A stretch of 64,000 nucleotides of DNA, taken from NCBI GenBank assembly GCA_041918855.1, contig JAYRUX010000014.1:778-64777 (forward strand), written 5' to 3'. Below the pieces are notes generated by a model, which was not told the DNA's origin, did not search any database, and saw only the letters and a list, made by a program, of their open reading frames with translations. The position numbers and the translations under genes were made by a program. This DNA is from Luteimonas sp. Its GTDB lineage: Bacteria > Pseudomonadota > Gammaproteobacteria > Xanthomonadales > Xanthomonadaceae. This document shows positions 11,470 through 63,720 of the stretch, piece after piece; within the stretch, counting starts at the first letter, position 1; every line of letters begins with the position of its first letter.

Positions 11470-11696
11470 ACCTCCTGTTTCGTCTCAAATTTTGAGATCG
11501 AGTCGTCAGAACCGAAGTCAGTCATCGGGCGCGCGCCGGAGCACACAGCGACAACCGGACCGTTCGCAAGTGCGCCACGCATGATTGCGGTGACCCAAAT
11601 CGCCGGCATGACGTTGGCCTTGAGCACGTGCGGCGGGACGCGAGACAGAGCCCGCGGGCGCATCGGCCAGCCGCTCGCGAGCACACGCCTGCCCCA

Positions 11697-11717
11697 GCCC
11701 CCTTTAGCAAAGGGGGC
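11697..11717. repeat. Short palindrome GCCCCCTTT-AGC-AAAGGGGGC
   Basis: Perfect 9-bp stem with a 3-nt loop in the rnpB-mraZ intergenic region. Confidence 0.6.
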
Positions 11718-11783
11718 GCCGCGACAGCGGCGGGGAATTGGAAGCACGGCCGGGGGCCCAAAGTTTGCAGCGCAAGCTTTGGG

Positions 11784-11816
11784 GCTTTGGTTCGAAGCGA
11801 GGCTTCGAACCAAAGC
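11784..11816 (-). terminator. 15-bp perfect hairpin just downstream of rnpB (terminator or processing stem)
   Basis: GCTTTGGTTCGAAGC-GAG-GCTTCGAACCAAAGC, 3 nt from the rnpB 3' end. No clear U-tract. Confidence 0.55.
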
Positions 11817-11819
11817 GGC

Positions 11820-12191
11820 GGAGCCGGCCGATAAGCCGGGTTCTGTCGTGGACAGTCATTCCTCTAGGCGCAGCGTCACCGCTACGCTCGAGCAACCTAC
11901 CCGGACCCGACGCGGGCCACGTCATGAGGTCCCTATTTGGTCTTGCTCCCGGTGGGGTTTGCCGTGCCGGCCTGTTGCCAGGCTCGCGGTGCGCTCTTAC
12001 CGCACCATTTCACCCTTGCCTGATCCGATGCACCCGAAGGTAACCGGCCATCGGCGGTATCTTTCTGTTGCACTTTCCGTCGGCTCGCGCCGCCCAGGGG
12101 TTACCTGGCACCGTGCCCTGTGGAGCCCGGACTTTCCTCGGCATCCGCCCCGCCGAAACAGGATGGATGACGCGACTGCCTGGCCGACTCC
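11820..12191 (-). ncRNA. rnpB: RNase P RNA, class A
   Basis: Minus strand reads GGAGTCGGCCAGGCAGTCGCG...GAGGAAAGTCCGGGCTCCACAGGGCA...ACAGAACCCGGCTTATCGGCCGGCTCC, the conserved P4 elements. Located between rsmI and mraZ. Confidence 0.96.
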
Positions 12192-12281
12192 GCCACCGCC
12201 ATTGTCGCACGCGGCGCCCTCGGCCGGCGCCGCGAGTCCCGATTGAACGAAGCTGTGCCATCCGCACGCTGCGGGCGCAGC

Positions 12282-12372
12282 CCCGTGCGGGCTGTGGCCA
12301 GCGCACATGGATGTGCGCGGTAGGCGAGTCGGCCATGGATGGCCGACCGAGCCGGGCCGCAGCCTGCACGGG
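12282..12372. repeat. Y-shaped palindromic element (REP/MITE-like)
   Basis: 18-bp outer inverted repeat (12282-12299 / 12355-12372) enclosing the hairpins GCGCACA-TGGA-TGTGCGC and GTCGGCCA-TGGA-TGGCCGAC. Confidence 0.7.
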
Positions 12373-12440
12373 GCAGCGCCTCCGGCCGAAGCCCGGGCTT
12401 TTCGCTTTTCGCCCCGACAGTCGCTCGCGCCACACGGGAA

Positions 12441-13295
12441 CTAGTTCGCCTTGGCGCCGTACAGCGCCTTACGCGGCGCCCCCGTGATCTCCGCCGCCAG
12501 CTTCGCCGCCACCGACGGCGGCAGCTGCGCCGCCAGGATCGCGTGCACCCGCCGGCCTTCCGCCAGCACCGCATCCGCGTCCTCGCCCACACCTTCCACT
12601 ACCACCACGAACTCCCCCCGCCGCTGGTTCGCGTCCGCCGCGACCGCCGCGCACAGCGCCCCCAGGCTCCCGTCCAGCACCGTCTCGAACACCTTCGTGA
12701 GCTCCCGCGCCACCACCGCTCGCCGCTCCGGCCCGAACACCGCCGCCATGTCCGCCAGCGCCTCCCCGATCCGGTGCGACGACTCGTAGAACAGCAGCGT
12801 CCGCCGCTCCCCCGCCAGCGCCGACAAGCGCTCCCGCCGCGCCCCCGCCTTCGCCGGCAGGAACCCTTCGAACGCAAAACGGTCGCTGGCCAGGCCTGCC
12901 ACGCTCAACGCCGCCACCAGCGCGCTCGGCCCCGGCACCGGGCTCACCCGCACCCCGGCCGCGCGCGCCGCCCGCACCAGCCGGAACCCCGGGTCGCTCA
13001 CCAGCGGCGTGCCCGCATCGCTCACCAGCGCCAGCGACTCCCCGCCGGCGAGGCGCGCCACGAGCCGCTCCGCCATCTCCGACTCGTTGTGCTCGTGCAA
13101 CGCCAGCAGCGGCCGCTCGAGGCCGAAGTGCGACAGCAGCTGGCGCGTATGCCGCGTGTCCTCCGCACAGATGGCCGAGACCGAGCGCAGGATCTCCAGC
13201 GCGCGCGGCGACAGGTCGCCGAGGTTGCCGATGGGCGTGGCGACGACGTGCAGCGTTCCGGGGCCGGCGGCGCCGGCGGGCTTGGGCGACGTCAT
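12441..13295 (-). CDS. rsmI: 16S rRNA Cm1402 methyltransferase
   Basis: [43 protein letters not shown]. Confidence 0.96.
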
Positions 13296-13355
13296 CGTCA
13301 CTCCGGGGACGGGGCGGTAGAATCCTAGCCGTTCTCGCACCCCGGGCCGGCATCG

Positions 13356-14543
13356 ATGCGTCATTCGTGGAAGAAGTCTCTTGCTGTCGCACTGGGCGGG
13401 CTGCTGCTCGCGGGCTGCGCCACCGTCGAGGTGACGCGCCCTGCGCCGACGCCCGGCGACGTGCCGCAGGAGGTCCCGACGCACCGCGAACACTGGCAGT
13501 TCGACGCCGGCAGCCGTCCGGCCGCGGAGCGCGACGGCTACCGTCCGCCGACGAAGCTCGCGGTGCTGCTGCCGCTTACCGGCAGCCTGGCCACCGCCGC
13601 GGCACCGGTGCGCGACGGCCTGCTCGCCGGGTACTACGGCGAATCCCGCCGCCGCCCGGAGCTGCAGTTCTACGACACCGCGGGCACCGCCGGCGGCGCA
13701 GTCGCCGCGTACGCACGCGCGGTGGCCGAGGGTGCCGACCAGGTGGTCGGGCCGCTCGGCCGCGACGAGGTGGAGGCGGTCTTCCGCCAGACCCAGCCCG
13801 AGGTCCCGGTGGTGGCCCTGAACCGACCCGACGCCCCGCCGCCGCGCAACAGCGCCAGCTACGCACTCGCACCCGAGGACGAAGGCCTGGCCGCCGCCGA
13901 CTACCTGGCCGCGCGCAACGCGTTGCGCGTGCTGGTGCTGAGCTCCGGCGACGACAATGCCCGCCGCAGCATCGACGCCTTCCAGGCGCGGCTGCAGGAG
14001 CTCGGCGGCAGCATCGTCCAGACCTTTGCCGTCGTCGGCGAGGCGCCCGCGGACATGACCGTGCTGCTGCAGGGCGCCGCGCAGCGCGAAGGTGGCATCG
14101 ATGCCGTCTTCCTCGCCGTGCGCGGGCCGCAGGCGCGGCTGGTCGCGCCGCAACTGTCGGCGGCGGGGCTTGCCGGCAAGCCGCGGGTGGCGACCTCGCA
14201 GCTGGTGTCCGGCACCGGCAAGGCCGCCGAGGACAGCGCGCTCGACGGCATCGCCTTCCCCACCGACGCCTGGAGCGCCGGCGGCGTCCCCGGGTTGCCC
14301 GGGGCGGCGGCCACAGGCTCGCGCCTGCCGACCGCGCGCGGGCCGGCGGCGCGCCTGTTCGCGTTCGGCTACGACGCCTGGCTGATCAGCGCCTACCTCG
14401 ACCGCCTTGCAACCGCCGACGGCCGGATCCAGGGCGCCGGCGGCACCCTGCGCATCGACGACGAAGGCCATGTACTCCGCGCGCCCGCGTGGTCCACCTT
14501 CAGCAGCGGCTACGTCGTGCCGCTGGCCGGCAGCGGCGGGTGA
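13356..14543 (+). CDS. lpoA: LpoA/LppC-family PBP activator lipoprotein (short form)
   Basis: Lipobox LAGC; [24 protein letters not shown]. Divergent from rsmI and upstream of yraN, as in gammaproteobacteria. Confidence 0.85.
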
Positions 14544-14908
14544 CCGGAACCCGCCAGCGCGGTGCGCTGGTGGAAGCGGCAGCGCGCACGCACCTGCTGC
14601 GCGCAGGCCTCGCGGACGTGGCGGCCAACGCCAGCTATCGCCTCGGCGAGCTGGACCTGGTGATGCGCGACGGCGACACGCTGGTGTTCGTGGAAGTGCG
14701 CTACCGCCGCGCAAGCGGTTTCGGCGGCGGCGCCGCATCCGTGGATGCGGGAAAGCGCCAGCGCATCGCCCGCGCCGCGGGAATGTTCCTGGCCCGGCAC
14801 CCCCAGTACGCGCAGTGGCCCTGCCGTTTCGACGTGGTCGCCGCCAGCGGCGACCCGGAGGCCCCGACGCTCGACTGGATCCGCGACGCCTTCCGCCTCG
14901 GCGATTGA
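14540..14908 (+). CDS. yraN: YraN/UPF0102 family protein
   Basis: [27 protein letters not shown]; GTG start overlaps the lpoA stop. Confidence 0.92.
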
Positions 14909-14936
14909 GCTGTCGCCCACGGGCTCGGACCAGAGC

Positions 14937-15893
14937 TCAACCCGGACGGAAGTGCTCGTGGCCACTGCCGGCCGGACGCCAGGGCCCACCCGCGGCATCG
15001 GCGGCGCGCACGCCGGGCGTGGCGACGATGCGCCCGATGCAGGCGATGGCGACGCCGGTCGCTTCGGCCACGCCGGCCACCCTGTCGCGCGCGGTTGGCG
15101 CGGTGGTGAAGCAGAGCTCGTAATCGTCACCGCCCGCGCCCTGCAGCGCGCGCCGCGCGTCTCCCATGGCGTACAGGGCGAGCGCCTGCGAACAGGGCAA
15201 GGCGTCGACATCCACCTCTGCGCCGACACCACTGGCCGTACAGACGTGGCCGAGATCGGCAAGCAGGCCATCGGACACGTCGACGCAGGCGTGCGCCACG
15301 CCGCGCAGCGCGCGCCCGGCGGCCAGCCGCGGCGTCGGCCGGTCCAGGCGACCGCGCAGCACCGGATCGACGTCCGTTCCCGAGCGCCACTGCGCCAGCG
15401 CGCCGGCGGCGTCGCCGAGGGTGCCCGTCACCCACACCAGGTCACCGGCGCGGGCGGCGTCGCGGCGCAATGCCGCGCCCGGCTCCACCAGGCCATGCGC
15501 GGTCACGCATATCGACAGCGGGCCGCGCGTGGTGTCGCCGCCGACGAGGGCCACGCCGCAGTCGCCGGCCAGCGCCAGGAACCCGTCGAGGAAGCCCTGC
15601 ACCCACGCCGGGTCGGCCTCCGGCAGCGACAGCGAGAGCGTGCACCAGGCCGGCTCCGCGCCCATCGCCGCGAGGTCGGACAGGTTGACCGCGAGCGCCT
15701 TCCAGCCGATGTCGGCCGGTGACGTCTCCACCGGGAAATGGACGCCGGCGTTCAACGTATCCATCGCCACCACCAGCTGCCGCCCGGGCGGCGGCTGCAG
15801 CAGAGCGGCATCGTCGCCGATACCGAGCACCACGTCGCCGCGCGTCGGCGCGCGCGCGCGGACCAGGGCGACGAGATCGAATTCGGCGGCCAT
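14937..15893 (-). CDS. thiL: Thiamine-monophosphate kinase
   Basis: GIGDDAA, KALAVNLSDLAAMGA, DVSDGL, GGDDYELCFT. Confidence 0.95.
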   Translation of the reverse strand: MAAEFDLVALVRARAPTRGDVVLGIGDDAALLQPPPGRQLVVAMDTLNAGVHFPVETSPADIGWKALAVNLSDLAAMGAEPAWCTLSLSLPEADPAWVQGFLDGFLALAGDCGVALVGGDTTRGPLSICVTAHGLVEPGAALRRDAARAGDLVWVTGTLGDAAGALAQWRSGTDVDPVLRGRLDRPTPRLAAGRALRGVAHACVDVSDGLLADLGHVCTASGVGAEVDVDALPCSQALALYAMGDARRALQGAGGDDYELCFTTAPTARDRVAGVAEATGVAIACIGRIVATPGVRAADAAGGPWRPAGSGHEHFRPG

Positions 15894-58496: not shown

Positions 58497-58632
58497 CGGC
58501 GCAGTGTAGCCGCTCGTCCGCGGCGTCCGCACGGCCGCCATGGCGTGCGGTCACGGATCCGGGCGGGGGCGCTTGCGCCGCCGGGGCGCGGGTGCTGCAA
58601 TCGCCGCCTCGCATCCCGCTGGAGTGGTTCCC

Positions 58633-59022
58633 ATGCAACGCATCCTCTTCGGCGCCCTTCTCGCCGCCGCCGGCCTCGGCGCCGCGCACGCGCAACAGCC
58701 GGCCGCCGAGGTCTACCAGTGGCAGGACGCGAACGGTGTCACCCATTTCTCGCAGACGCCACCGGCGAAGGGTGCGTACCAGCAGCGTGCGATCACCAAC
58801 ACCGGCAGCGCCGCGCCGGTCGCGCAGGCGACGACGGCGGCGGCCGCCGAGAGCAGCCAATGCACCACCGCACGCGGCAACATCGAGGCGCTGCAGGGCG
58901 ACACCGCGGTGCAGCAGGACACCGACGGCGACGGCACCCCGGACAAGGTCCTGGATCCCGCCGAGCGCGCCGCGCAGCTCGAGTTCGCGCAGGCGGCGGT
59001 CAAGGCCTTCTGCGCCAGCTGA
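58633..59022 (+). CDS. DUF4124-like secreted protein
   Basis: Signal peptide; VYQWQDANGVTHFSQTPP; Cys pair. Confidence 0.82.
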   Translation: MQRILFGALLAAAGLGAAHAQQPAAEVYQWQDANGVTHFSQTPPAKGAYQQRAITNTGSAAPVAQATTAAAAESSQCTTARGNIEALQGDTAVQQDTDGDGTPDKVLDPAERAAQLEFAQAAVKAFCAS

Positions 59023-59040: not shown

Positions 59041-59337
59041 GTGCGCCTGGGCTGGGCCATCGCCGCCGGACTCGCCGCCGGCATCGCGGTCGCATGGTGG
59101 CTGTCGCGGGAATCGCCTGAAGCGGCCGCCGAAAAACGCCTGCGCGCCGAACAGGCCGCCTCCGCCGGAGCCGCCGACGCACGACCCGTACTCTACCGCT
59201 GGACCGACGCCGGCGGCGTCGTCCAGGTCACCGACACCCCACCGCCCGGCGGCCAGCGCTACGACACCGTCGACCTTTACCCCCGCGACGGCATCGAAGT
59301 CCACGGCGGTCGCGAAGCGTCGGCCCTGCCGGACTGA
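59041..59337 (+). CDS. DUF4124-like membrane-anchored protein
   Basis: N-terminal TM; LYRWTDAGGVVQVTDTPP. Confidence 0.78.
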   Translation: MRLGWAIAAGLAAGIAVAWWLSRESPEAAAEKRLRAEQAASAGAADARPVLYRWTDAGGVVQVTDTPPPGGQRYDTVDLYPRDGIEVHGGREASALPD

Positions 59338-59374: not shown

Positions 59375-59635
59375 CGCCATCGGAGGCGCAACTGCAGGGT
59401 GACTCCGCGCTCCAAGGCTCGCGCGATCGGAGGCGGACCTGCGGGGTGACTCCGCCGACTGGTCCCTTCGGGCCCTTTATGTCGGCTGCGCACCCCGCAG
59501 CCCCGCCTCCTCGACGAGACAGCGCGGCACATGCTGTTTTCAACTGCCCGGACCCGTCGGCGGGCGGGTGGTGTGTTCCGCAGCGGACATAAAGGTCCCG
59601 AAGGGGCCAGTCCGCGGAGGAATTCACCACTCGCC
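59375..59635. repeat. Composite structured repeat (34-bp direct repeats plus 41-bp inverted repeats)
   Basis: Direct repeats 59375-59408 / 59422-59455 (30/34 identical); inverted repeats 59450-59490 / 59579-59619 (37/41 identical). Confidence 0.8.
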
Positions 59636-59766
59636 AGCCCGCGCCGCGCCCGCTACAGGCTGTTGACACCGGGTGCGTCATTTCACGTGACGTTTGCCGC
59701 ATCGGCGGCACCCTCGCCACGGGCGCAGGCGCGCGGAGCCACGACATCGCCAGGATCGTCCCCACT

Positions 59767-60768
59767 GTGACCGGCGGCGCGACCGCTGGCCCTGCGGTGG
59801 CCATTTCGGCCGCGCTGCTGCTGTGTGCGTGCGGAGGCAACCAGTCCGCGCTGCTGCCGGCCGGTAGCGAAGCGACCGCGGTCGCGCGGCTGTTCTGGGT
59901 CATGGCCGCGGGCGCGGGCCTGGTCTGGCTGGTCGTAATCGCGCTGGCGCTCTACGCCTCGCGCAGCCGCGCCCACGCGCCTGCGGCCGGCCGACGCCTG
60001 ATCGTCATCGGCGGCGTCATCGTCCCCACCGTCGTCCTTGGCACGCTGCTGGTGTACGGCCTGCGGCTGATGCCACCGCTGCGTGAGCCCGGCGCCGCCG
60101 ACGGCCTGGTGGTCGAGGTGTCCGGCGAGCAATGGTGGTGGCGCGTGCGCTACGTCGACCCGCGGAACCGCACGGGTGCTGTCGACGCGGCCAACGAGGT
60201 CCGCCTGCCGGTCGGCGAGCGCACGACGTTCCGCCTGTCCAGCCCGGACGTGATCCATTCGTTCTGGATCCCCGCGCTGGGCGGGAAGATGGACATGATC
60301 CCCGGCCGGGTGACCACCCTGGTGCTGGAGCCGGACCGCGTGGGGCGCTGGCGCGGCGTGTGTGCGGAGTTCTGCGGCGCATCGCATGCGCTGATGGCGT
60401 TCGACGTCGAGGTCATGGCGCGGGCCGATTTCGATCGCTGGCTCGCCGCGCAGGCGGCCCCGGCCGCCGTGCCAGCCGATGACCTCGCCGCGCATGGGCG
60501 CACGCGTTTCATCGCGAGCGGCTGCGGCGCCTGCCATGCCGTCCGCGGCGATCCTGGCGTCGGCCGCGGCCGCTACGGCCCCGACCTCACCCACGTCGGC
60601 AGCCGTCCGAGCCTGGCCGCGGGCACCCTCCCCAACGACGCACGCGCCTTCCGCACCTGGATCGAGCGCACCCACCGCATCAAGCCGGAGGCGCTGATGC
60701 CGGCGTTCGACATGCTCCCCGCGGACGAACTCGATGCCATGGCGGCCTACCTGGAGTCGCTGCAATGA
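59767..60768 (+). CDS. coxB: Cytochrome c oxidase subunit II with fused cytochrome c (caa3-like)
   Basis: Lipobox-like LCAC; QWWWRVRY; CuA motif HSFW...CAEFCGASHALM; CGACH heme c site. Confidence 0.92.
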   Translation: MTGGATAGPAVAISAALLLCACGGNQSALLPAGSEATAVARLFWVMAAGAGLVWLVVIALALYASRSRAHAPAAGRRLIVIGGVIVPTVVLGTLLVYGLRLMPPLREPGAADGLVVEVSGEQWWWRVRYVDPRNRTGAVDAANEVRLPVGERTTFRLSSPDVIHSFWIPALGGKMDMIPGRVTTLVLEPDRVGRWRGVCAEFCGASHALMAFDVEVMARADFDRWLAAQAAPAAVPADDLAAHGRTRFIASGCGACHAVRGDPGVGRGRYGPDLTHVGSRPSLAAGTLPNDARAFRTWIERTHRIKPEALMPAFDMLPADELDAMAAYLESLQ

Positions 60769-63290
60769 GCGCCGGAGCCGAACTCGCCCCGCCCGCCCCG
60801 CCTGCCGAAAGCCCGGAGGCACGGCGGCTGATGGCGGCATGGGAGACGCCCACCGGCTGGCGCTACCTGTCCGCGGTGAACAACAGCGAGGTCGGGCGCT
60901 GGTACACCGCGATGTCGTTCGTGTTCTTCCTGTTCGCGGGCGTGCTCGCGCTGCTGATGCGGGTACAGCTCGCGGTGCCCGACAACGACTTCGTCGACGC
61001 CGACACCTACAACCAGCTCTTCACCCTGCATGGCTCGGCGATGATGTTCCTGTTCGCGGTGCCGGTGTTCGAGGCGTTCTCGATCCTGATCCTTCCGCAG
61101 CTGCTCGGCGCGCGGGAACTGCCGTTCCCGAGGCTGTCGGCGTTCGGCTTCTGGTGCTTCTTCATCGGCGGCATCTTCGTGTGCGGCTCGATCTTCTTCG
61201 GCGCCGCGCCCAAGGGCGGCTGGTTCATGTACCCGCCGCTGGCCACGGACTACCAGGACGGCCTCGGCGCCGACATCTGGCTGCTCGGCCTGTCGTTCAT
61301 CGAGATCGCGTCGATCGCGGCCGCGGTCGAGCTGATCGTGGGCGTGCTGAAGACGCGGCCGCCGGGCATGCGCATCAACCTGATGCCGCTGTATGCGTGG
61401 TACATCCTGGTGGTGGCGGCGATGATCCTGTTCGCGTTCCCGCCGCTGATCGCCGGCGACATCCTGTTCGAGCTGCAGCGCGCGCTGGACTGGCCGTTCT
61501 TCGACCCGGCGCGCGGCGGCGACCCGGTGCTGTGGCAGCACCTGTTCTGGATCTTCGGCCACCCCGAGGTCTACATCGTGTTCCTGCCGTCGATCGCGCT
61601 GGTGGCGATGATCGTGCCCACCTTCGCGCGCCGCCCGATGATCGGCTACAGCTGGATCGTGCTGGCGGCCGTGGGGACCGGCTTCCTCAGCTTCGGCCTG
61701 TGGGTGCACCACATGTTCACCACCGGGCTGCCGAACATCTCGCTGGCCTTCTTCTCCGCGGCGTCCGAAGCGGTGGCGCTGCCCACCGGGGTGCAGATCT
61801 TCGCCCTGCTGGCGACGGTCCTCGCCGGTCGCGTGGTGCGCTCGGTGCCGATGCTGTTCGTGATGGGTGCGCTGGCGATCTTCGTCCTCGGCGGCCTCAC
61901 CGGGGTGATGGTCGCGGTGGCACCGTTCGACTTCCAGGCGCACGACACCTACTTCGTCGTCGCCCACCTGCATTACGTGCTGGTCGGCGGCATGCTGTTC
62001 CCCGTCATCGCGGGCACCTACTACTACTTCCCCGTCGCCACCGGGCGGCAGCTCTCCGAACGCGCCGGTCGCTGGGCGTTCTGGCTGATGTTCGCCGGCT
62101 TCAACGTCGCCTTCCTGCCCATGCACCTCACCGGGCTGCACGGCATGCCGCGCCGCGTGTACACCTATGGCGCCAGCCAGGGCTTCGACGTGCTCAACAT
62201 GGTGTCGACCGTCGGCGCCTTCGTGCTCGCGGCGGGCGTGGTCGTGATCGTCGTGGATGCCGTGCGCGCCGCGCGCAGCCGCACGCTGTCGCCGCGCAAT
62301 CCCTGGGGCGCGGGGACGCTCGAATGGCTCACCGAGATCCCGGGCCGGCCATGGGGCGTGCGCTCGATCCCGATCGTGCGCAGCCGCTACCCGCTGTGGG
62401 ACCAGCCGGGGTTCGTGCGCGACGTCGACGCCGGGCGCTACTACCTGCCCGATGCCGCCGAGGGCCTGCGTGAAACGCTGGTCACGAGCACCATCGACGC
62501 GCATCCGATCCAGTGCCTGCGCGTCCCCGGCCCCACCTTCCTGACCCTGTGGGCGGCTGCCTTCACCGGCGGGGCCTTCATCTTCCCGGTGTTCCAGATG
62601 TACGGCGCGGCGGCGGTGAGCGGGGTACTCGCCCTGGTGGCGATCACCGCATGGACGTGGACCGGCACCGCGCTGCAGCCGGAGAAGCCGGAGAAGGACG
62701 TCGGCCTCGGCCTCACCCTGCCGCTGTACGCGTCGGGCCCGGTGTCGGTGGGCTGGTGGGCGATGTTCATCACCATGATCGGCGACATGACCGCGTTCGC
62801 CAGCCTCGTGTTCGGTTACTTCTTCTTCTGGACGATCCACGACGATTTCCCGCCGGGCCCGGCCATGGGCCCGGGCCTCGCGTGGCCGCTGCTGGCGCTT
62901 TCCCTGCTGCTGGCGTCGTGGCTCCTCACGTGGCTGGCGCGCGGGCTCAACCGTCGCGACGCGGGCACGGGCTTCCACCTCGCGACCGCGCTCGCGGCGC
63001 TGTCCGCGCTCGGGGGTGCCACGGCGCTGCTCGCCGGGCCCTGGAGCCACGGGATGGACCCGACGGCGCACGTCTATCCGGCAACGGTCTGGGTGCTGTC
63101 GGGCTGGGCGGCACTGCATGCGGTGGCCGGCGCGCTGATGCAGCTGTATTGCATCGCTCGCCGCATCGCCGGGCGGATGACGGCAGCGCACGACATCGAC
63201 ATCCACAACGTGACGCTGTACTGGCACTTCGTGGCGATCACGGCGCTGGTGACGGTCGGCGTCACCGCCGGGTTCCCGAGGGTCGCCTGA
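60765..63290 (+). CDS. coxA: Heme-copper oxidase subunit I fused to a subunit III-like domain
   Basis: HGSAMMF, GHPEVY, WVHHMF, AHLHYV, GMPRR; C-terminal about 180 aa with YWHFV resemble subunit III. Confidence 0.93.
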   Translation: MSAGAELAPPAPPAESPEARRLMAAWETPTGWRYLSAVNNSEVGRWYTAMSFVFFLFAGVLALLMRVQLAVPDNDFVDADTYNQLFTLHGSAMMFLFAVPVFEAFSILILPQLLGARELPFPRLSAFGFWCFFIGGIFVCGSIFFGAAPKGGWFMYPPLATDYQDGLGADIWLLGLSFIEIASIAAAVELIVGVLKTRPPGMRINLMPLYAWYILVVAAMILFAFPPLIAGDILFELQRALDWPFFDPARGGDPVLWQHLFWIFGHPEVYIVFLPSIALVAMIVPTFARRPMIGYSWIVLAAVGTGFLSFGLWVHHMFTTGLPNISLAFFSAASEAVALPTGVQIFALLATVLAGRVVRSVPMLFVMGALAIFVLGGLTGVMVAVAPFDFQAHDTYFVVAHLHYVLVGGMLFPVIAGTYYYFPVATGRQLSERAGRWAFWLMFAGFNVAFLPMHLTGLHGMPRRVYTYGASQGFDVLNMVSTVGAFVLAAGVVVIVVDAVRAARSRTLSPRNPWGAGTLEWLTEIPGRPWGVRSIPIVRSRYPLWDQPGFVRDVDAGRYYLPDAAEGLRETLVTSTIDAHPIQCLRVPGPTFLTLWAAAFTGGAFIFPVFQMYGAAAVSGVLALVAITAWTWTGTALQPEKPEKDVGLGLTLPLYASGPVSVGWWAMFITMIGDMTAFASLVFGYFFFWTIHDDFPPGPAMGPGLAWPLLALSLLLASWLLTWLARGLNRRDAGTGFHLATALAALSALGGATALLAGPWSHGMDPTAHVYPATVWVLSGWAALHAVAGALMQLYCIARRIAGRMTAAHDIDIHNVTLYWHFVAITALVTVGVTAGFPRVA

Positions 63291-63291
63291 G

Positions 63292-63720
63292 ATGGCGCGG
63301 GCACAGACGCCGCGGCAGGACGCCGAGCAGCTCCGGCATCGCGACCCGGCGCTGCCCGAAGGCGACGCCAGCCTGTGGCGGCTGACGACGGGCCCCGTGA
63401 TCTGGGCGCTGCATTTCCTCGCCTGCTACGTCATCGCCGCCGTGTACTGCGCGAAGGCGGCGTCCGCGGCCACGCCGCTGGACGACATCCGCCTGCAGCT
63501 CGGCGCGGCCACGGTGCTCGCGCTGGCGGCCATCGCATGGTCCGGCTGGCGCGGCTGGCGCCAGCACCGCCGGGGCGCCGAGCCCGCGCCACACGACGCC
63601 CCCACCGCGGGCGACCGCCACCGGTTCCTGGGGTTCGCCACCATGCTGCTGTGCGGGCTGTCGTTCGTGGCCGTGGTGTACTCGGGCTTCGTGCTCCTGG
63701 TCATCGGGACCTGCCGGTGA
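63292..63720 (+). CDS. Hypothetical membrane protein of the oxidase operon
   Basis: Three hydrophobic segments; coupled to coxA (1-nt gap) and to the next gene. Confidence 0.75.
   Translation: MARAQTPRQDAEQLRHRDPALPEGDASLWRLTTGPVIWALHFLACYVIAAVYCAKAASAATPLDDIRLQLGAATVLALAAIAWSGWRGWRQHRRGAEPAPHDAPTAGDRHRFLGFATMLLCGLSFVAVVYSGFVLLVIGTCR

What the first reader, a model, noticed from the sequence alone, without database searches (positions are those of the whole stretch)
60765..62300. Heme-copper oxidase with an intact active site but rewired proton channels
Seen: all six His ligands, the HPEVY Tyr and the A1-type Glu are present. The K-channel Lys (PTGVK) is Gln (PTGVQ, Q344), and a new Glu appears on the same helix (SAASEAVA, versus SATMIIA). 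The D-channel entry DMAFPRxN is ELPFPRLS (E118, S125). Established: in canonical A-family oxidases, loss of the K-channel Lys nearly abolishes turnover, and changes at the D-channel Asn can uncouple pumping. Inference: a natural variant with an alternative proton route, reduced pumping, peroxidase-like activity or another coupling ion. Similar sequences likely exist in other proteobacteria, but I know of no biochemical characterization.
Basis: partly seen in the sequence, partly recalled or inferred. Interest (0 to 1): 0.75.

Follow-up and report, generated by a model that had tools for sequence, protein, structure and literature searches.

The report
Cytochrome oxidase clade with rebuilt proton channels
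This gene encodes an intact oxygen-reducing cytochrome c oxidase from a large, widespread but biochemically unstudied branch of the family, in which one textbook proton pathway (K) has been dismantled and the other (D) re-lined with glutamates, so it is a natural test of how these enzymes move protons.

Summary
ORF 60765-63290 (841 aa) is a fused subunit I+III of an A-family heme-copper oxidase. All six His ligands, the HPEVY Tyr and the Glu are present; Q344 replaces the K-channel Lys, and E118 and S125 sit at the D-channel entry.

It is not strain decay. Q344 is found in 314 of 315 relatives, from Xanthomonadaceae to Chloroflexota.

- The subunit II Glu at the K-channel entrance is hydrophobic in 78/78 partners, and the other K-channel residues (Pd S291, H/E292, S357) are also lost.
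- The D-channel Asn gate is gone: N113→I107, N131→S125, N199→E189.
- Three new Glu are essentially invariant: E103, E180 and E189.
- E118 is only a D/E variant. E335 is conserved only within a sub-clade.

The gene lies in a syntenic five-gene module: coxII-cyt c, coxI+III, orf142, Caa3_CtaG and a triheme cytochrome c. This module is catalogued as "COX operon type a".

I found no channel analysis, solved structure or biochemistry for it. One survey even lists it as "K-channel: yes".

Most likely it is an O2 reductase fed only through a carboxylate-lined D pathway; its coupling efficiency is unknown.

The parts
59767..60768 (+). coxII fused to a C-terminal cytochrome c domain (333 aa). CuA ligands are in DVIHSFW (60247-60267) and CAEFCGASHALM (60361-60396); the heme c site CGACH is at 60523-60537.
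   Evidence: PF00116 COX2, PF00034 Cytochrom_C and TIGR02866 (158.4 bits > 147.7 cut-off). The best PDB match is T. thermophilus caa3 subunit II, 2yev_B, E=1.8e-45.
60004..60006 (+). CoxII V80, the position of the K-channel entrance Glu (Pd E78(II) / Rs E101(II)).
   Evidence: It aligns with the Glu of ..LEIAWTIVP.. / ..RLEVVWTLIP.. in PDB chains. It is L/I/V/F/A in 76/76 close-clade CoxII and W or I in 2/2 distant-clade CoxII.
60765..63290 (+). coxI+III fusion (841 aa; about 12 + 7 predicted TM helices by my reading of the sequence).
   Evidence: The homologous R. palustris BisA53 'COX1-3' protein is also 841 aa, with residues 550-841 aligning to COX3 (PMC4013037).
61794..61796 (+). Q344 (CAG), in place of the K-channel Lys (Pd K354 / Rs K362).
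   Evidence: Q in 314/315 clade members.
61329..61331 (+). E189 (GAG), in place of the D-channel neck Asn (Pd N199 / Rs N207).
   Evidence: Ungapped alignment anchored on RPPGM/RAPGM. E in 315/315 clade members versus N in 28/28 canonical sequences.
61302..61304 (+). E180 (GAG), in place of Pd G190 in helix IV, next to S189 in the upper D channel.
   Evidence: E in 315/315 versus G in 27/28 canonical.
61071..61073 (+). E103 (GAG), helix II, four residues before the N113-equivalent (Pd G109 register).
   Evidence: E in 312/315 versus G/A/S and others in canonical sequences. The register depends on a one-residue indel near P100, which I checked by hand.
61083..61085 (+). I107, in place of the Asn-gate residue Pd N113 / Rs N121.
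   Evidence: I/V/M/A in 310/315; N only in 5 distant members.
61116..61139 (+). D-channel entry ELPFPRLS, with E118 (Pd D124) and S125 (Pd N131 / Rs N139).
61560..61574 (+). HPEVY: H266 (CuB ligand), E268 (Pd E278) and Y270 (cross-link Tyr).
   Evidence: Y 315/315; E 302, D 13.
61767..61769 (+). E335 on helix VIII (Pd M345). This is a sub-clade feature.
   Evidence: E 145 / Q 44 / other 9 in 198 close sequences and no E in 117 distant ones. The same column is Glu in several unrelated K-less oxidases such as P0201, P0207, P0237, P0247 and P0265.
61605..61610 (+). A281-M282, in place of the K-channel residues Pd S291 and H292 (E/H/D in canonical enzymes).
63292..63720 (+). orf142, a small membrane protein that always follows coxI+III. 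No family match; conserved LW..P..WA.HF..CY, DR.RF and a C-terminal Cys.

Best explanation
The ORF is the catalytic subunit (fused I+III) of a caa3-type, A-family heme-copper cytochrome c:O2 oxidoreductase.

It belongs to a large, old and horizontally mobile subfamily. This is the fused 'COX1-3' protein of 'COX operon type a', found from Chloroflexota to Proteobacteria, Planctomycetota and Verrucomicrobiota.

Shown:
- The active site, the CuA site, the Mg-site residues and the Arg pair above the hemes are canonical.
- The N-side proton input is not canonical.
- The K pathway is dismantled. The Lys is Gln throughout the clade. The subunit II entrance Glu is hydrophobic in every partner examined. 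Pd H/E292 is M/A/T/S, and Pd S357 is mostly C/A/V. Pd S291 is Ala in the close clade.
- The Asn gate of the D pathway is replaced: N113 by Ile, N131 by Ser, N199 by Glu.
- Two further Glu (E103, E180) are essentially invariant.

Inferred:
- All substrate protons, and any pumped protons, enter through the remodelled D pathway.
- The protons pass along carboxylates spaced roughly one to two helical turns apart: D/E118, then E189, E103, E180 and finally E268.
- The K region is left as at most a dielectric well.
- Extra carboxylates at the neck uncouple canonical enzymes. Coupling here may therefore be lower, unless co-evolved changes compensate.
For: Identity:
-.
- Ligands and Tyr are conserved in 315/315.
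- Pd W164, W272, D399, H403, D404, R473 and R474 equivalents are conserved.

K pathway loss:
- Q344 in 314/315.
- A281, M282 and A/C/V347.
- CoxII Glu absent in 76/76 plus 2/2 partners.

D pathway remodelling:
- E189 in 315/315, E180 in 315/315, E103 in 312/315, non-Asn at position 107 in 310/315.
- The signature clade is monophyletic in a neighbour-joining tree.

The module includes the CuB-insertion factor Caa3_CtaG and c-type cytochromes, and is syntenic in about 80 genomes from at least 7 phyla. That fits a working oxidase.

Precedent for working A-family oxidases without a K channel: the Acidithiobacillus rus-operon aa3 (bioRxiv 10.1101/2020.03.01.968255).

The roles of the K and D channels and the uncoupling by N131D/N139D and N199D/N207D are described in PMC7196763. 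The Asn gate is N121 plus N139 in Rs numbering (PMC10341450).
Against: - No coordinates were available. The AlphaFold model was poor (mean pLDDT 63), so the claim that E103, E180 and E189 face the channel rests on helical periodicity relative to known lining residues.
- E180 is about 120 degrees off the centre of the D-channel face.
- The column aligned with E103 is not uniformly small in canonical enzymes; it is Trp in the actinobacterial subunits aligned.
- In canonical enzymes the D pathway cannot substitute efficiently for the K pathway in the reductive phase.
- T341/S, Y270 and, in the distant clade, S291 are retained, so a neutral K-like wire is not excluded.
- There is no expression or activity evidence for any member. 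The RNA check was inconclusive.
Confidence: 0.5

Rival explanations
1. The K pathway still works, but as a neutral hydrogen-bonded wire like the K-analogue of B- and C-family oxidases. It would run Q344-T341-Y270 with waters, helped by T305 and S309 on helix VII, and use a different entrance. The new Glu residues then only tune the D pathway.
For: - B- and C-type oxidases use Lys-free K-analogue channels (PMC3084760; PMC11214002).
- Gln is strictly conserved rather than replaced by arbitrary hydrophobics as in the Acidithiobacillus type, which suggests a polar role.
- T305 is new in the clade, and S309 occupies a KC-channel position.
Against: The entrance residues are all hydrophobic or small: CoxII V/L/I, A281, M282, A/C/V347. 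No new ionisable residue appears in helices VI-IX clade-wide.
Confidence: 0.2
2. The enzyme is a naturally decoupled (non-pumping) or poorly electrogenic oxidase. It would be used for O2 scavenging or redox balancing rather than energy conservation.
For: - A carboxylate at the N199/N207 position abolishes pumping in P. denitrificans and R. sphaeroides at near-normal turnover (PMC7196763).
- The module behaves as a mobile accessory cassette (>60% identity across phyla).
- From my own knowledge, many of the host genera also carry a canonical aa3.
Against: The P-side elements used for pumping are conserved. D132N/N139D double mutants regain pumping, so charge balance rather than a single residue decides the outcome. 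The clade has many co-evolved changes. This rival is compatible with the best explanation's proton route and differs only in stoichiometry.
Confidence: 0.2
3. The main substrate is not O2 (NO or H2O2 reduction), or the coupling ion is Na+ moving along the glutamates.
For: - K-channel mutants of canonical enzymes keep peroxidase-type partial reactions (own knowledge).
- Several hosts are halophiles or alkaliphiles, such as Billgrantia, Nitrosococcus halophilus and Thiohalomonadaceae.
- Buried carboxylate ladders occur in cation transporters (own knowledge).
Against: The three CuB His and the cross-link Tyr are invariant. The newly described NOR families lack the Tyr or alter the CuB site (PMC11214002). 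CuA and cytochrome c input are typical of oxidases. The clade is just as common in soil rhizobia, Sphingomonas and Chloroflexota.
Confidence: 0.07
4. The substitutions are strain-specific decay of a redundant oxidase gene.
For: None found.
Against: The 841-codon ORF is intact and GC3 is 0.95, like its neighbours. The same residues are invariant in 315 sequences down to about 40% identity.
Confidence: 0.01

Closest known systems
Thermus thermophilus caa3 oxidase (PDB 2YEV; subunit I+III fusion, subunit II-cytochrome c fusion)
   Same: It has the same subunit architecture: an I+III fusion and a II-cyt c fusion. It is the best PDB match for CoxII (E=1.8e-45) and a strong match for CoxI (E=1.2e-117).
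   Different: The Thermus enzyme is an A2 type (YS instead of the helix VI Glu; own knowledge) with a canonical K pathway. Its subunit II has the entrance Glu, and the 'Thermus COX13 fused' group is tabulated as 'K-channel: yes'. The window protein has E268, Q344 and V80(II), plus E103, E180 and E189.
Canonical A1 aa3 oxidases (P. denitrificans 1AR1/3HB3, R. sphaeroides 1M56, bovine 1OCC)
   Same: The fold and all metal ligands are shared, as are HPEVY, the Arg pair, the Mg site, Y35, D124 (as D/E) and S193.
   Different: Of the fingerprint residues listed by Sousa et al. (PMC3084760), N113, N131, N199, S134, K354 and S291 are replaced, and so is E78(II).
K-less A-family oxidases of acidophilic iron oxidisers (Acidithiobacillus rus-operon aa3 and relatives)
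   Same: K354 and E78(II) are both replaced (table). Several K-less representatives also have a Glu at the column of E335.
   Different: It is a separate lineage in the NJ tree. These enzymes keep the N-D-N-N D channel, replace Lys with Ile/Val/Leu/Met rather than Gln, and lack E103, E180 and E189. Many have extra N-terminal TM helices.
B-family ba3 oxidases (T. thermophilus 1EHK)
   Same: They are working oxidases with a single proton input pathway and no channel Lys.
   Different: The single pathway there is the K-analogue and the D pathway is missing. Here the pattern is the reverse. Sequence relation is remote (E about 1e-13).
Engineered decoupled mutants N207D / N139D (R. sphaeroides) and N199D / N131D (P. 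denitrificans)
   Same: They carry a carboxylate in the Asn neck of the D channel, and E189 sits exactly at N199/N207.
   Different: Those are single changes in a canonical background. Here the change is Glu rather than Asp, is fixed in a whole clade, and comes with many co-changes.

Membership tests
Heme-copper oxidase superfamily, O2-reducing branch | Six His ligands (heme a x2, heme a3, CuB x3) and the helix VI cross-link Tyr | tested here: met
   H89, H403, H401, H266, H315, H316 and Y270 are present. They are invariant in 315 clade members.
A family (homology definition) | Subunit I scores above the curated cut-off of the CtaD/CoxA equivalog model | tested here: met
   TIGR02891 scores 696.9 bits against a cut-off of 670.75.
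A family, type A1 (channel fingerprint of Pereira/Sousa) | D-channel residues D124, N199, N113, N131, Y35, S134, S193, E278 (Pd numbering) | tested here: not met
   Present: E118 (D/E), Y47, S183, E268. Replaced: N199 by E189, N113 by I107, N131 by S125, S134 by G128 (fingerprint from PMC3084760).
A family, type A1 (channel fingerprint of Pereira/Sousa) | K-channel residues K354, T351, S291, Y280, plus E78 of subunit II | tested here: not met
   Y270 and T341 are present. K354 is Q344, S291 is A281 and E78(II) is V80.
caa3-type oxidase | Subunit II carries CuA and a C-terminal class I cytochrome c domain | tested here: met
   COX2 and Cytochrom_C domains, CuA motif and CGACH are present.
caa3-type oxidase | Heme A in both heme sites | not testable with these tools
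   No ctaA or ctaB lies in the module. Heme type needs spectroscopy.
'COX operon type a' with fused COX1-3 (Degli Esposti 2014) | COX3 fused to the C terminus of COX1; Caa3-type ctaG appended or prepended to the core genes | tested here: met
   841-aa fusion with a PF00510 C-terminal domain. Caa3_CtaG lies two genes downstream. Synteny holds in about 80 loci. The definition is in PMC4013037 and PMC4986455.
sNOR / eNOR / gNOR / bNOR / nNOR nitric oxide reductases | Loss of the cross-link Tyr and/or an altered CuB/FeB ligand set; relation to the B or C branches | tested here: not met
   The Tyr and three His are invariant and the protein is placed in the A family (definition in PMC11214002).
B family | No D channel; K-analogue with Thr/Ser/Tyr; close sequence relation to ba3 | tested here: not met
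   ba3 matches only at E about 1e-13, against 1e-125 for A-type enzymes.

The most novel reading that the evidence does not exclude
This subfamily would be the mirror image of the B family. It would be an A-type oxygen reductase that has given up the K pathway. All its protons would run through a D pathway rebuilt as a ladder of carboxylates, without the Asn gate. If so, it is a natural experiment on two open questions: why A-type oxidases need a K channel in the reductive phase, and how the D-channel neck controls pumping. Its H+/e- stoichiometry might differ from 1.
Probability: 0.4. Interest if true: 0.75.

Novelty: new variant of a known kind. Interest (0 to 1): 0.62.

Why it matters
Textbook mechanism for A-type oxidases rests on mutants of a few canonical enzymes. 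In those, the K-channel Lys is needed for the reductive half-cycle, and the Asn neck of the D channel decides whether protons are pumped.

Here a very common environmental oxidase has naturally removed the Lys, its entrance Glu and the Asn gate, and has fixed three new glutamates. It was confirmed in 80 species-level genomes from at least seven phyla. Many metagenomic sequences also belong to it.

Measuring its turnover and H+/e- ratio, or solving its structure, would show one of two things. Either a D-only A-type oxidase can work and pump, or a large share of environmental 'caa3' genes encode low-coupling oxidases.

It also matters for annotation. These genes are routinely counted as ordinary caa3/aa3 oxidases when respiratory energy yield is inferred from genomes.

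Tried and rejected
- **Structure prediction.** The AlphaFold2 model built from a 30-sequence alignment was poor (mean pLDDT 63, pTM 0.53). It gives no coordinates, so I did not use it for geometry and ran no fold search on it.
- **RNA evidence.**
  - There are no RNA runs for the window itself.
  - For the Rhizobium leguminosarum homolog, the runs labelled 'RNA' carry 5-7 kb contigs over the operon at flat depth. They look like genomic DNA.
  - A soil metatranscriptome gives only short fragments at 90-95% identity.
  - I count this as inconclusive.
- **FNR/ANR box.** There is no TTGAT-N4-ATCAA match with up to 2 mismatches upstream of coxII.
- **sNOR or another new NOR family.** Rejected, because the Tyr and the CuB ligands are intact.
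- **E335 as the general replacement for the Lys.** Rejected, because it is absent from the distant clade and is Gln in 44 of 198 close members.
- **Literature.**
  - Searches for natural K-to-Q variants, Nitrosococcus locus tags and 'subunit I+III' gave nothing relevant. One search for Bradyrhizobium bll4479-81 was swamped by an unsuitable term, and its listed hits held none of the locus tags.
  - The Nitrosococcus oceani genome paper and Degli Esposti 2020 (BBA) are not held.
Full report
**What is there**

The finding lies in an 841-codon ORF (60765-63290, + strand). Its ATG overlaps the stop of the upstream gene (ATGA), and a 142-codon ORF starts two bases after its stop.
- The N-terminal ~545 residues match Pfam COX1 (479.9 bits) and the NCBIfam equivalog CtaD_CoxA (696.9 bits, cut-off 670.75).
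- The C-terminal ~290 residues match COX3 weakly (23.9 bits, cut-off 23.8). They hold seven hydrophobic segments by my reading.
- The upstream gene (59767-60768) is subunit II with a complete CuA motif and a fused C-terminal cytochrome c. Its closest solved relative is subunit II of the Thermus thermophilus caa3 oxidase.
- A public contig carrying the identical protein shows what follows beyond the window end: orf142, then a Caa3_CtaG copper-insertion factor, then a 406-aa membrane-anchored cytochrome c with three CxxCH sites.
- The rest of the window is ordinary chromosomal housekeeping of a ~72% GC gammaproteobacterium. It includes the dcw genes, rib genes, glyA, a type II secretion cluster, purL, xerD, dsbC, lptFG, pepA, holC and valS.
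- The closest relatives are Lysobacter-like Xanthomonadaceae. The sequence occurs in an activated-sludge metagenome.

**Checking the observation**

- The ligands are H89 and H403 (heme a), H401 (heme a3), and H266, H315 and H316 (CuB). Y270 and E268 lie in HPEVY.
- Ungapped phmmer alignments to solved actinobacterial aa3 subunits put Q344 under the Lys of PTGVK. They put E118 and S125 under the Asp and Asn of GAPDxAFPRLN.
- For standard numbering I used a library protein whose numbering coincides with that of P. denitrificans subunit I from about residue 85 onward.
- The equivalences are Q344=K354, T341=T351, Y270=Y280, E268=E278, E118=D124, S125=N131 and E335=M345.

**Is it clade-wide?**

Yes, and the clade is much larger than expected.
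- In the 120 best database homologs (at least 70% identity), Q344 and S125 are invariant. Position 118 is D in 101 and E in 19. Position 335 is E in 81, Q in 32 and other residues in 7.
- A search of 50%-identity representatives showed the same Gln in many ~840-aa I+III fusions sharing only 37-48% identity with the query.
- A profile of those distant members recovered 117 more. The named ones are mostly Chloroflexota (Roseiflexaceae, Caldilinea, Anaerolineae), with Sulfomarinibacteraceae, Azospirillum and Noviherbaspirillum.
The best 80 share 61-79% identity. They come from Gamma- and Alphaproteobacteria, Planctomycetota, Verrucomicrobiota, Acidobacteriota, Myxococcota, Binatia and others.
- Such high identity across phyla points to horizontal spread.
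- The five-gene order coxII(c)-coxI+III-orf142-ctaG-triheme cytochrome c is kept in nearly all of these loci.

I compared 34 close members, 14 distant members and 28 canonical Lys-containing sequences column by column. I then recounted on 315 clade members. The clade signature is the following.

| Window residue | Canonical equivalent | Count in clade |
|---|---|---|
| Q344 | Pd K354 | 314/315 |
| E189 | Pd N199 / Rs N207 (N in 28/28 canonical) | 315/315 |
| E180 | Pd G190 (G in 27/28 canonical) | 315/315 |
| E103 | Pd G109 register | 312/315 |
| I107 (non-Asn) | Pd N113 / Rs N121 | 310/315 |
| E236 | Pd L246 | 272/315 |

- Position 125 is S, N, G or T.
- Pd H/E292 is M, A, T or S.
- Pd S357 is C, A or V in the close clade and mostly A (some S) in the distant one.
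- Pd S291 is Ala in the close clade only.
- In subunit II, the Glu that forms the K-channel entrance (Pd E78, Rs E101) aligns with V80. It is L/I/V/F/A in 76/76 close partners and W or I in the two distant partners examined.
- By contrast, the P-side elements are kept: Pd W164, W272, D399, H403, D404, R473 and R474.
- A neighbour-joining tree groups all sequences with the Glu/Glu/Glu/Gln signature together. They are separate from canonical A1/A2 enzymes and from a second K-less group.

The rewiring is therefore real but differs from the first description:
- The K pathway has lost its entrance, its Lys and most of its lower lining.
- The Asn gate of the D pathway (N121 and N139 in Rs numbering, PMC10341450) and the facing N207 are replaced by Ile, Ser and Glu.
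- Two more Glu are fixed higher up.
- E118 is only a D/E alternation.
- E335 is a sub-clade trait.
- The E335 column is also Glu in several other representatives that lack the Lys (for example the motif STEAISIPF), which suggests convergence. Most of these group together in the tree, apart from the window's clade. By their N-D-N-N channel and hydrophobic replacement of the Lys they resemble the K-less oxidases of acidophilic iron oxidisers described.

**How it most likely works**

Shown: this is an intact member of the O2-reducing heme-copper oxidases. It has CuA and cytochrome c input and a dedicated CuB assembly factor.

The next steps are inferred from helical periodicity, with no coordinates available:
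- E189 sits at the neck.
- E103 lies one turn above the N113 position, on the same helix face.
- E180 lies nine residues (about 13 Å) above E189 on helix IV, next to S189 and near the level of E268.
- Together with D/E118 and E268 this would give a series of carboxylates spaced about 6-7 Å apart along the D pathway.
- I therefore propose that all protons enter by this remodelled D pathway and that the K region is not a proton conductor.

Background and precedent:
- In canonical enzymes the K channel delivers substrate protons only in the O to E to R steps, and the D channel delivers the rest (PMC7196763).
- A-family oxidases without K354 and E78(II) exist in Acidithiobacillus and its relatives, and are described as possibly lacking a functional K channel.
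- N199D/N207D and N131D/N139D abolish pumping at near-normal turnover, while D132N/N139D restores it.
- So coupling in this clade could be reduced or could have been re-balanced. Sequence alone cannot tell.

Caveats:
- E180 is about 120 degrees from the centre of the channel face.
- The E103 equivalence depends on where a one-residue indel near P100 is placed.
- The E103 column is not uniformly small in canonical enzymes; it is Trp in the actinobacterial subunits.

**Rivals**

- A neutral, B-family-like K wire through Q344, T341 and Y270 remains possible. Gln is strictly conserved, and T305 and S309 are polar. However, every known entrance residue is hydrophobic.
- A change of chemistry (NO or H2O2) is unlikely with an invariant Tyr-His-Cu site. 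The recently defined NOR families lack these features.
- Na+ coupling is speculative.
- Gene decay is excluded.

**Comparison with what is known**

- The gene cluster has been catalogued as 'COX operon type a' with a fused 'COX1-3' protein. The example given is the 841-aa protein of R. palustris BisA53 (PMC4013037, PMC4986455). Those papers never use the word 'proton' in their main text.
- A later survey of K-channel variation excluded the COX1-3 fusions from its trees. It has no Lys-to-Gln row in its residue table. [quoted passage not shown] If that subtype is the present clade, as its fusion, taxa and Caa3_CtaG suggest, the entry disagrees with the alignments here.
- No solved structure belongs to the clade. 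The best PDB matches are actinobacterial aa3, B. subtilis aa3-600 and Thermus caa3. The three displayed alignments, all actinobacterial, show the Lys.
- Genome papers simply call the gene 'caa3'.
- I found no purification, mutant or H+/e- measurement, but the library does not hold much of the subscription literature.

**Verdict**

This is a distinct channel variant of a known enzyme family. It is very common in nature and apparently uncharacterised. Interest is moderate to high because simple experiments on it bear directly on the roles of the K channel and the D-channel neck.

Noticed in passing
window 63292-63720; L083:6053-6427: orf142 always follows coxI+III. It has no family match but has conserved motifs (LW..P..WA.HF..CY, DR.RF, C-terminal Cys). 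A homolog follows the distant-clade oxidase in a metagenomic contig. It may be a clade-specific fourth subunit or a metal-handling factor.
   Followed up: partly
L001:4749-5969 (downstream of the window end): A 406-aa membrane-anchored cytochrome c with three CxxCH sites ends the module in nearly all genomes. It may be the dedicated electron donor. Whether it takes electrons from quinol or from a soluble carrier is unknown.
   Followed up: partly
window 58540-59022 and 59041-59337: Two adjacent small genes, each with a DUF4124 domain, lie just upstream of coxII. They are not part of the conserved module.
   Followed up: no
window 59380-59408 and 59427-59455; 59676-59692: The coxII upstream region holds a ~29-nt imperfect direct repeat (tcggaggcg..ctgc.gggtgactccgc). 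It also holds an inverted repeat CGTCA-N7-TGACG, 8 nt downstream of a TTGACA hexamer. These may be regulatory or REP-like elements.
   Followed up: no
proteins P0136, P0156 (also P0157, P0182, P0197, P0205, P0230): A group of subunit I relatives has HPWVY instead of HPEVY (Trp at the E278 position), a canonical N-D-N-N D channel, and Ala, Val or another non-Lys residue at the Lys position.
   Followed up: no
proteins P0144, P0183, P0250, P0147, P0150, P0208, P0267: These relatives, 560-920 aa long, have lost several heme or Cu ligands or the Tyr. They branch near the clade and may be non-catalytic paralogs or misassemblies.
   Followed up: no
PMC8239418 Supplementary Table S1 versus this clade: The published survey lists 'subtype a COX13 fused' as having a K channel. 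The alignments here show Gln at K354 and no E78(II) in the fused I+III clade that matches that description.
   Followed up: yes
whole window: Matches to TTGATNNNNATCAA with up to 2 mismatches number 12, against 2.6 expected; no shuffle reached 12. Most contain GATC and lie inside genes, so this may reflect composition or codon usage rather than FNR sites.
   Followed up: no
runs X23, X24 laid on L042: Runs labelled as RNA-Seq hold 5-7 kb contigs over the whole operon at uniform depth, and their longest contigs reach 26-30 kb. They look like genomic DNA rather than transcripts.
   Followed up: partly
L082:6386-7312 and 11599-15665: In a Caldilinea genome the distant-clade oxidase is flanked by a Rieske/DUF2231 protein, two amine-oxidase-like flavoproteins and further c-type cytochromes. 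It lacks the orf142-ctaG-triheme arrangement.
   Followed up: no
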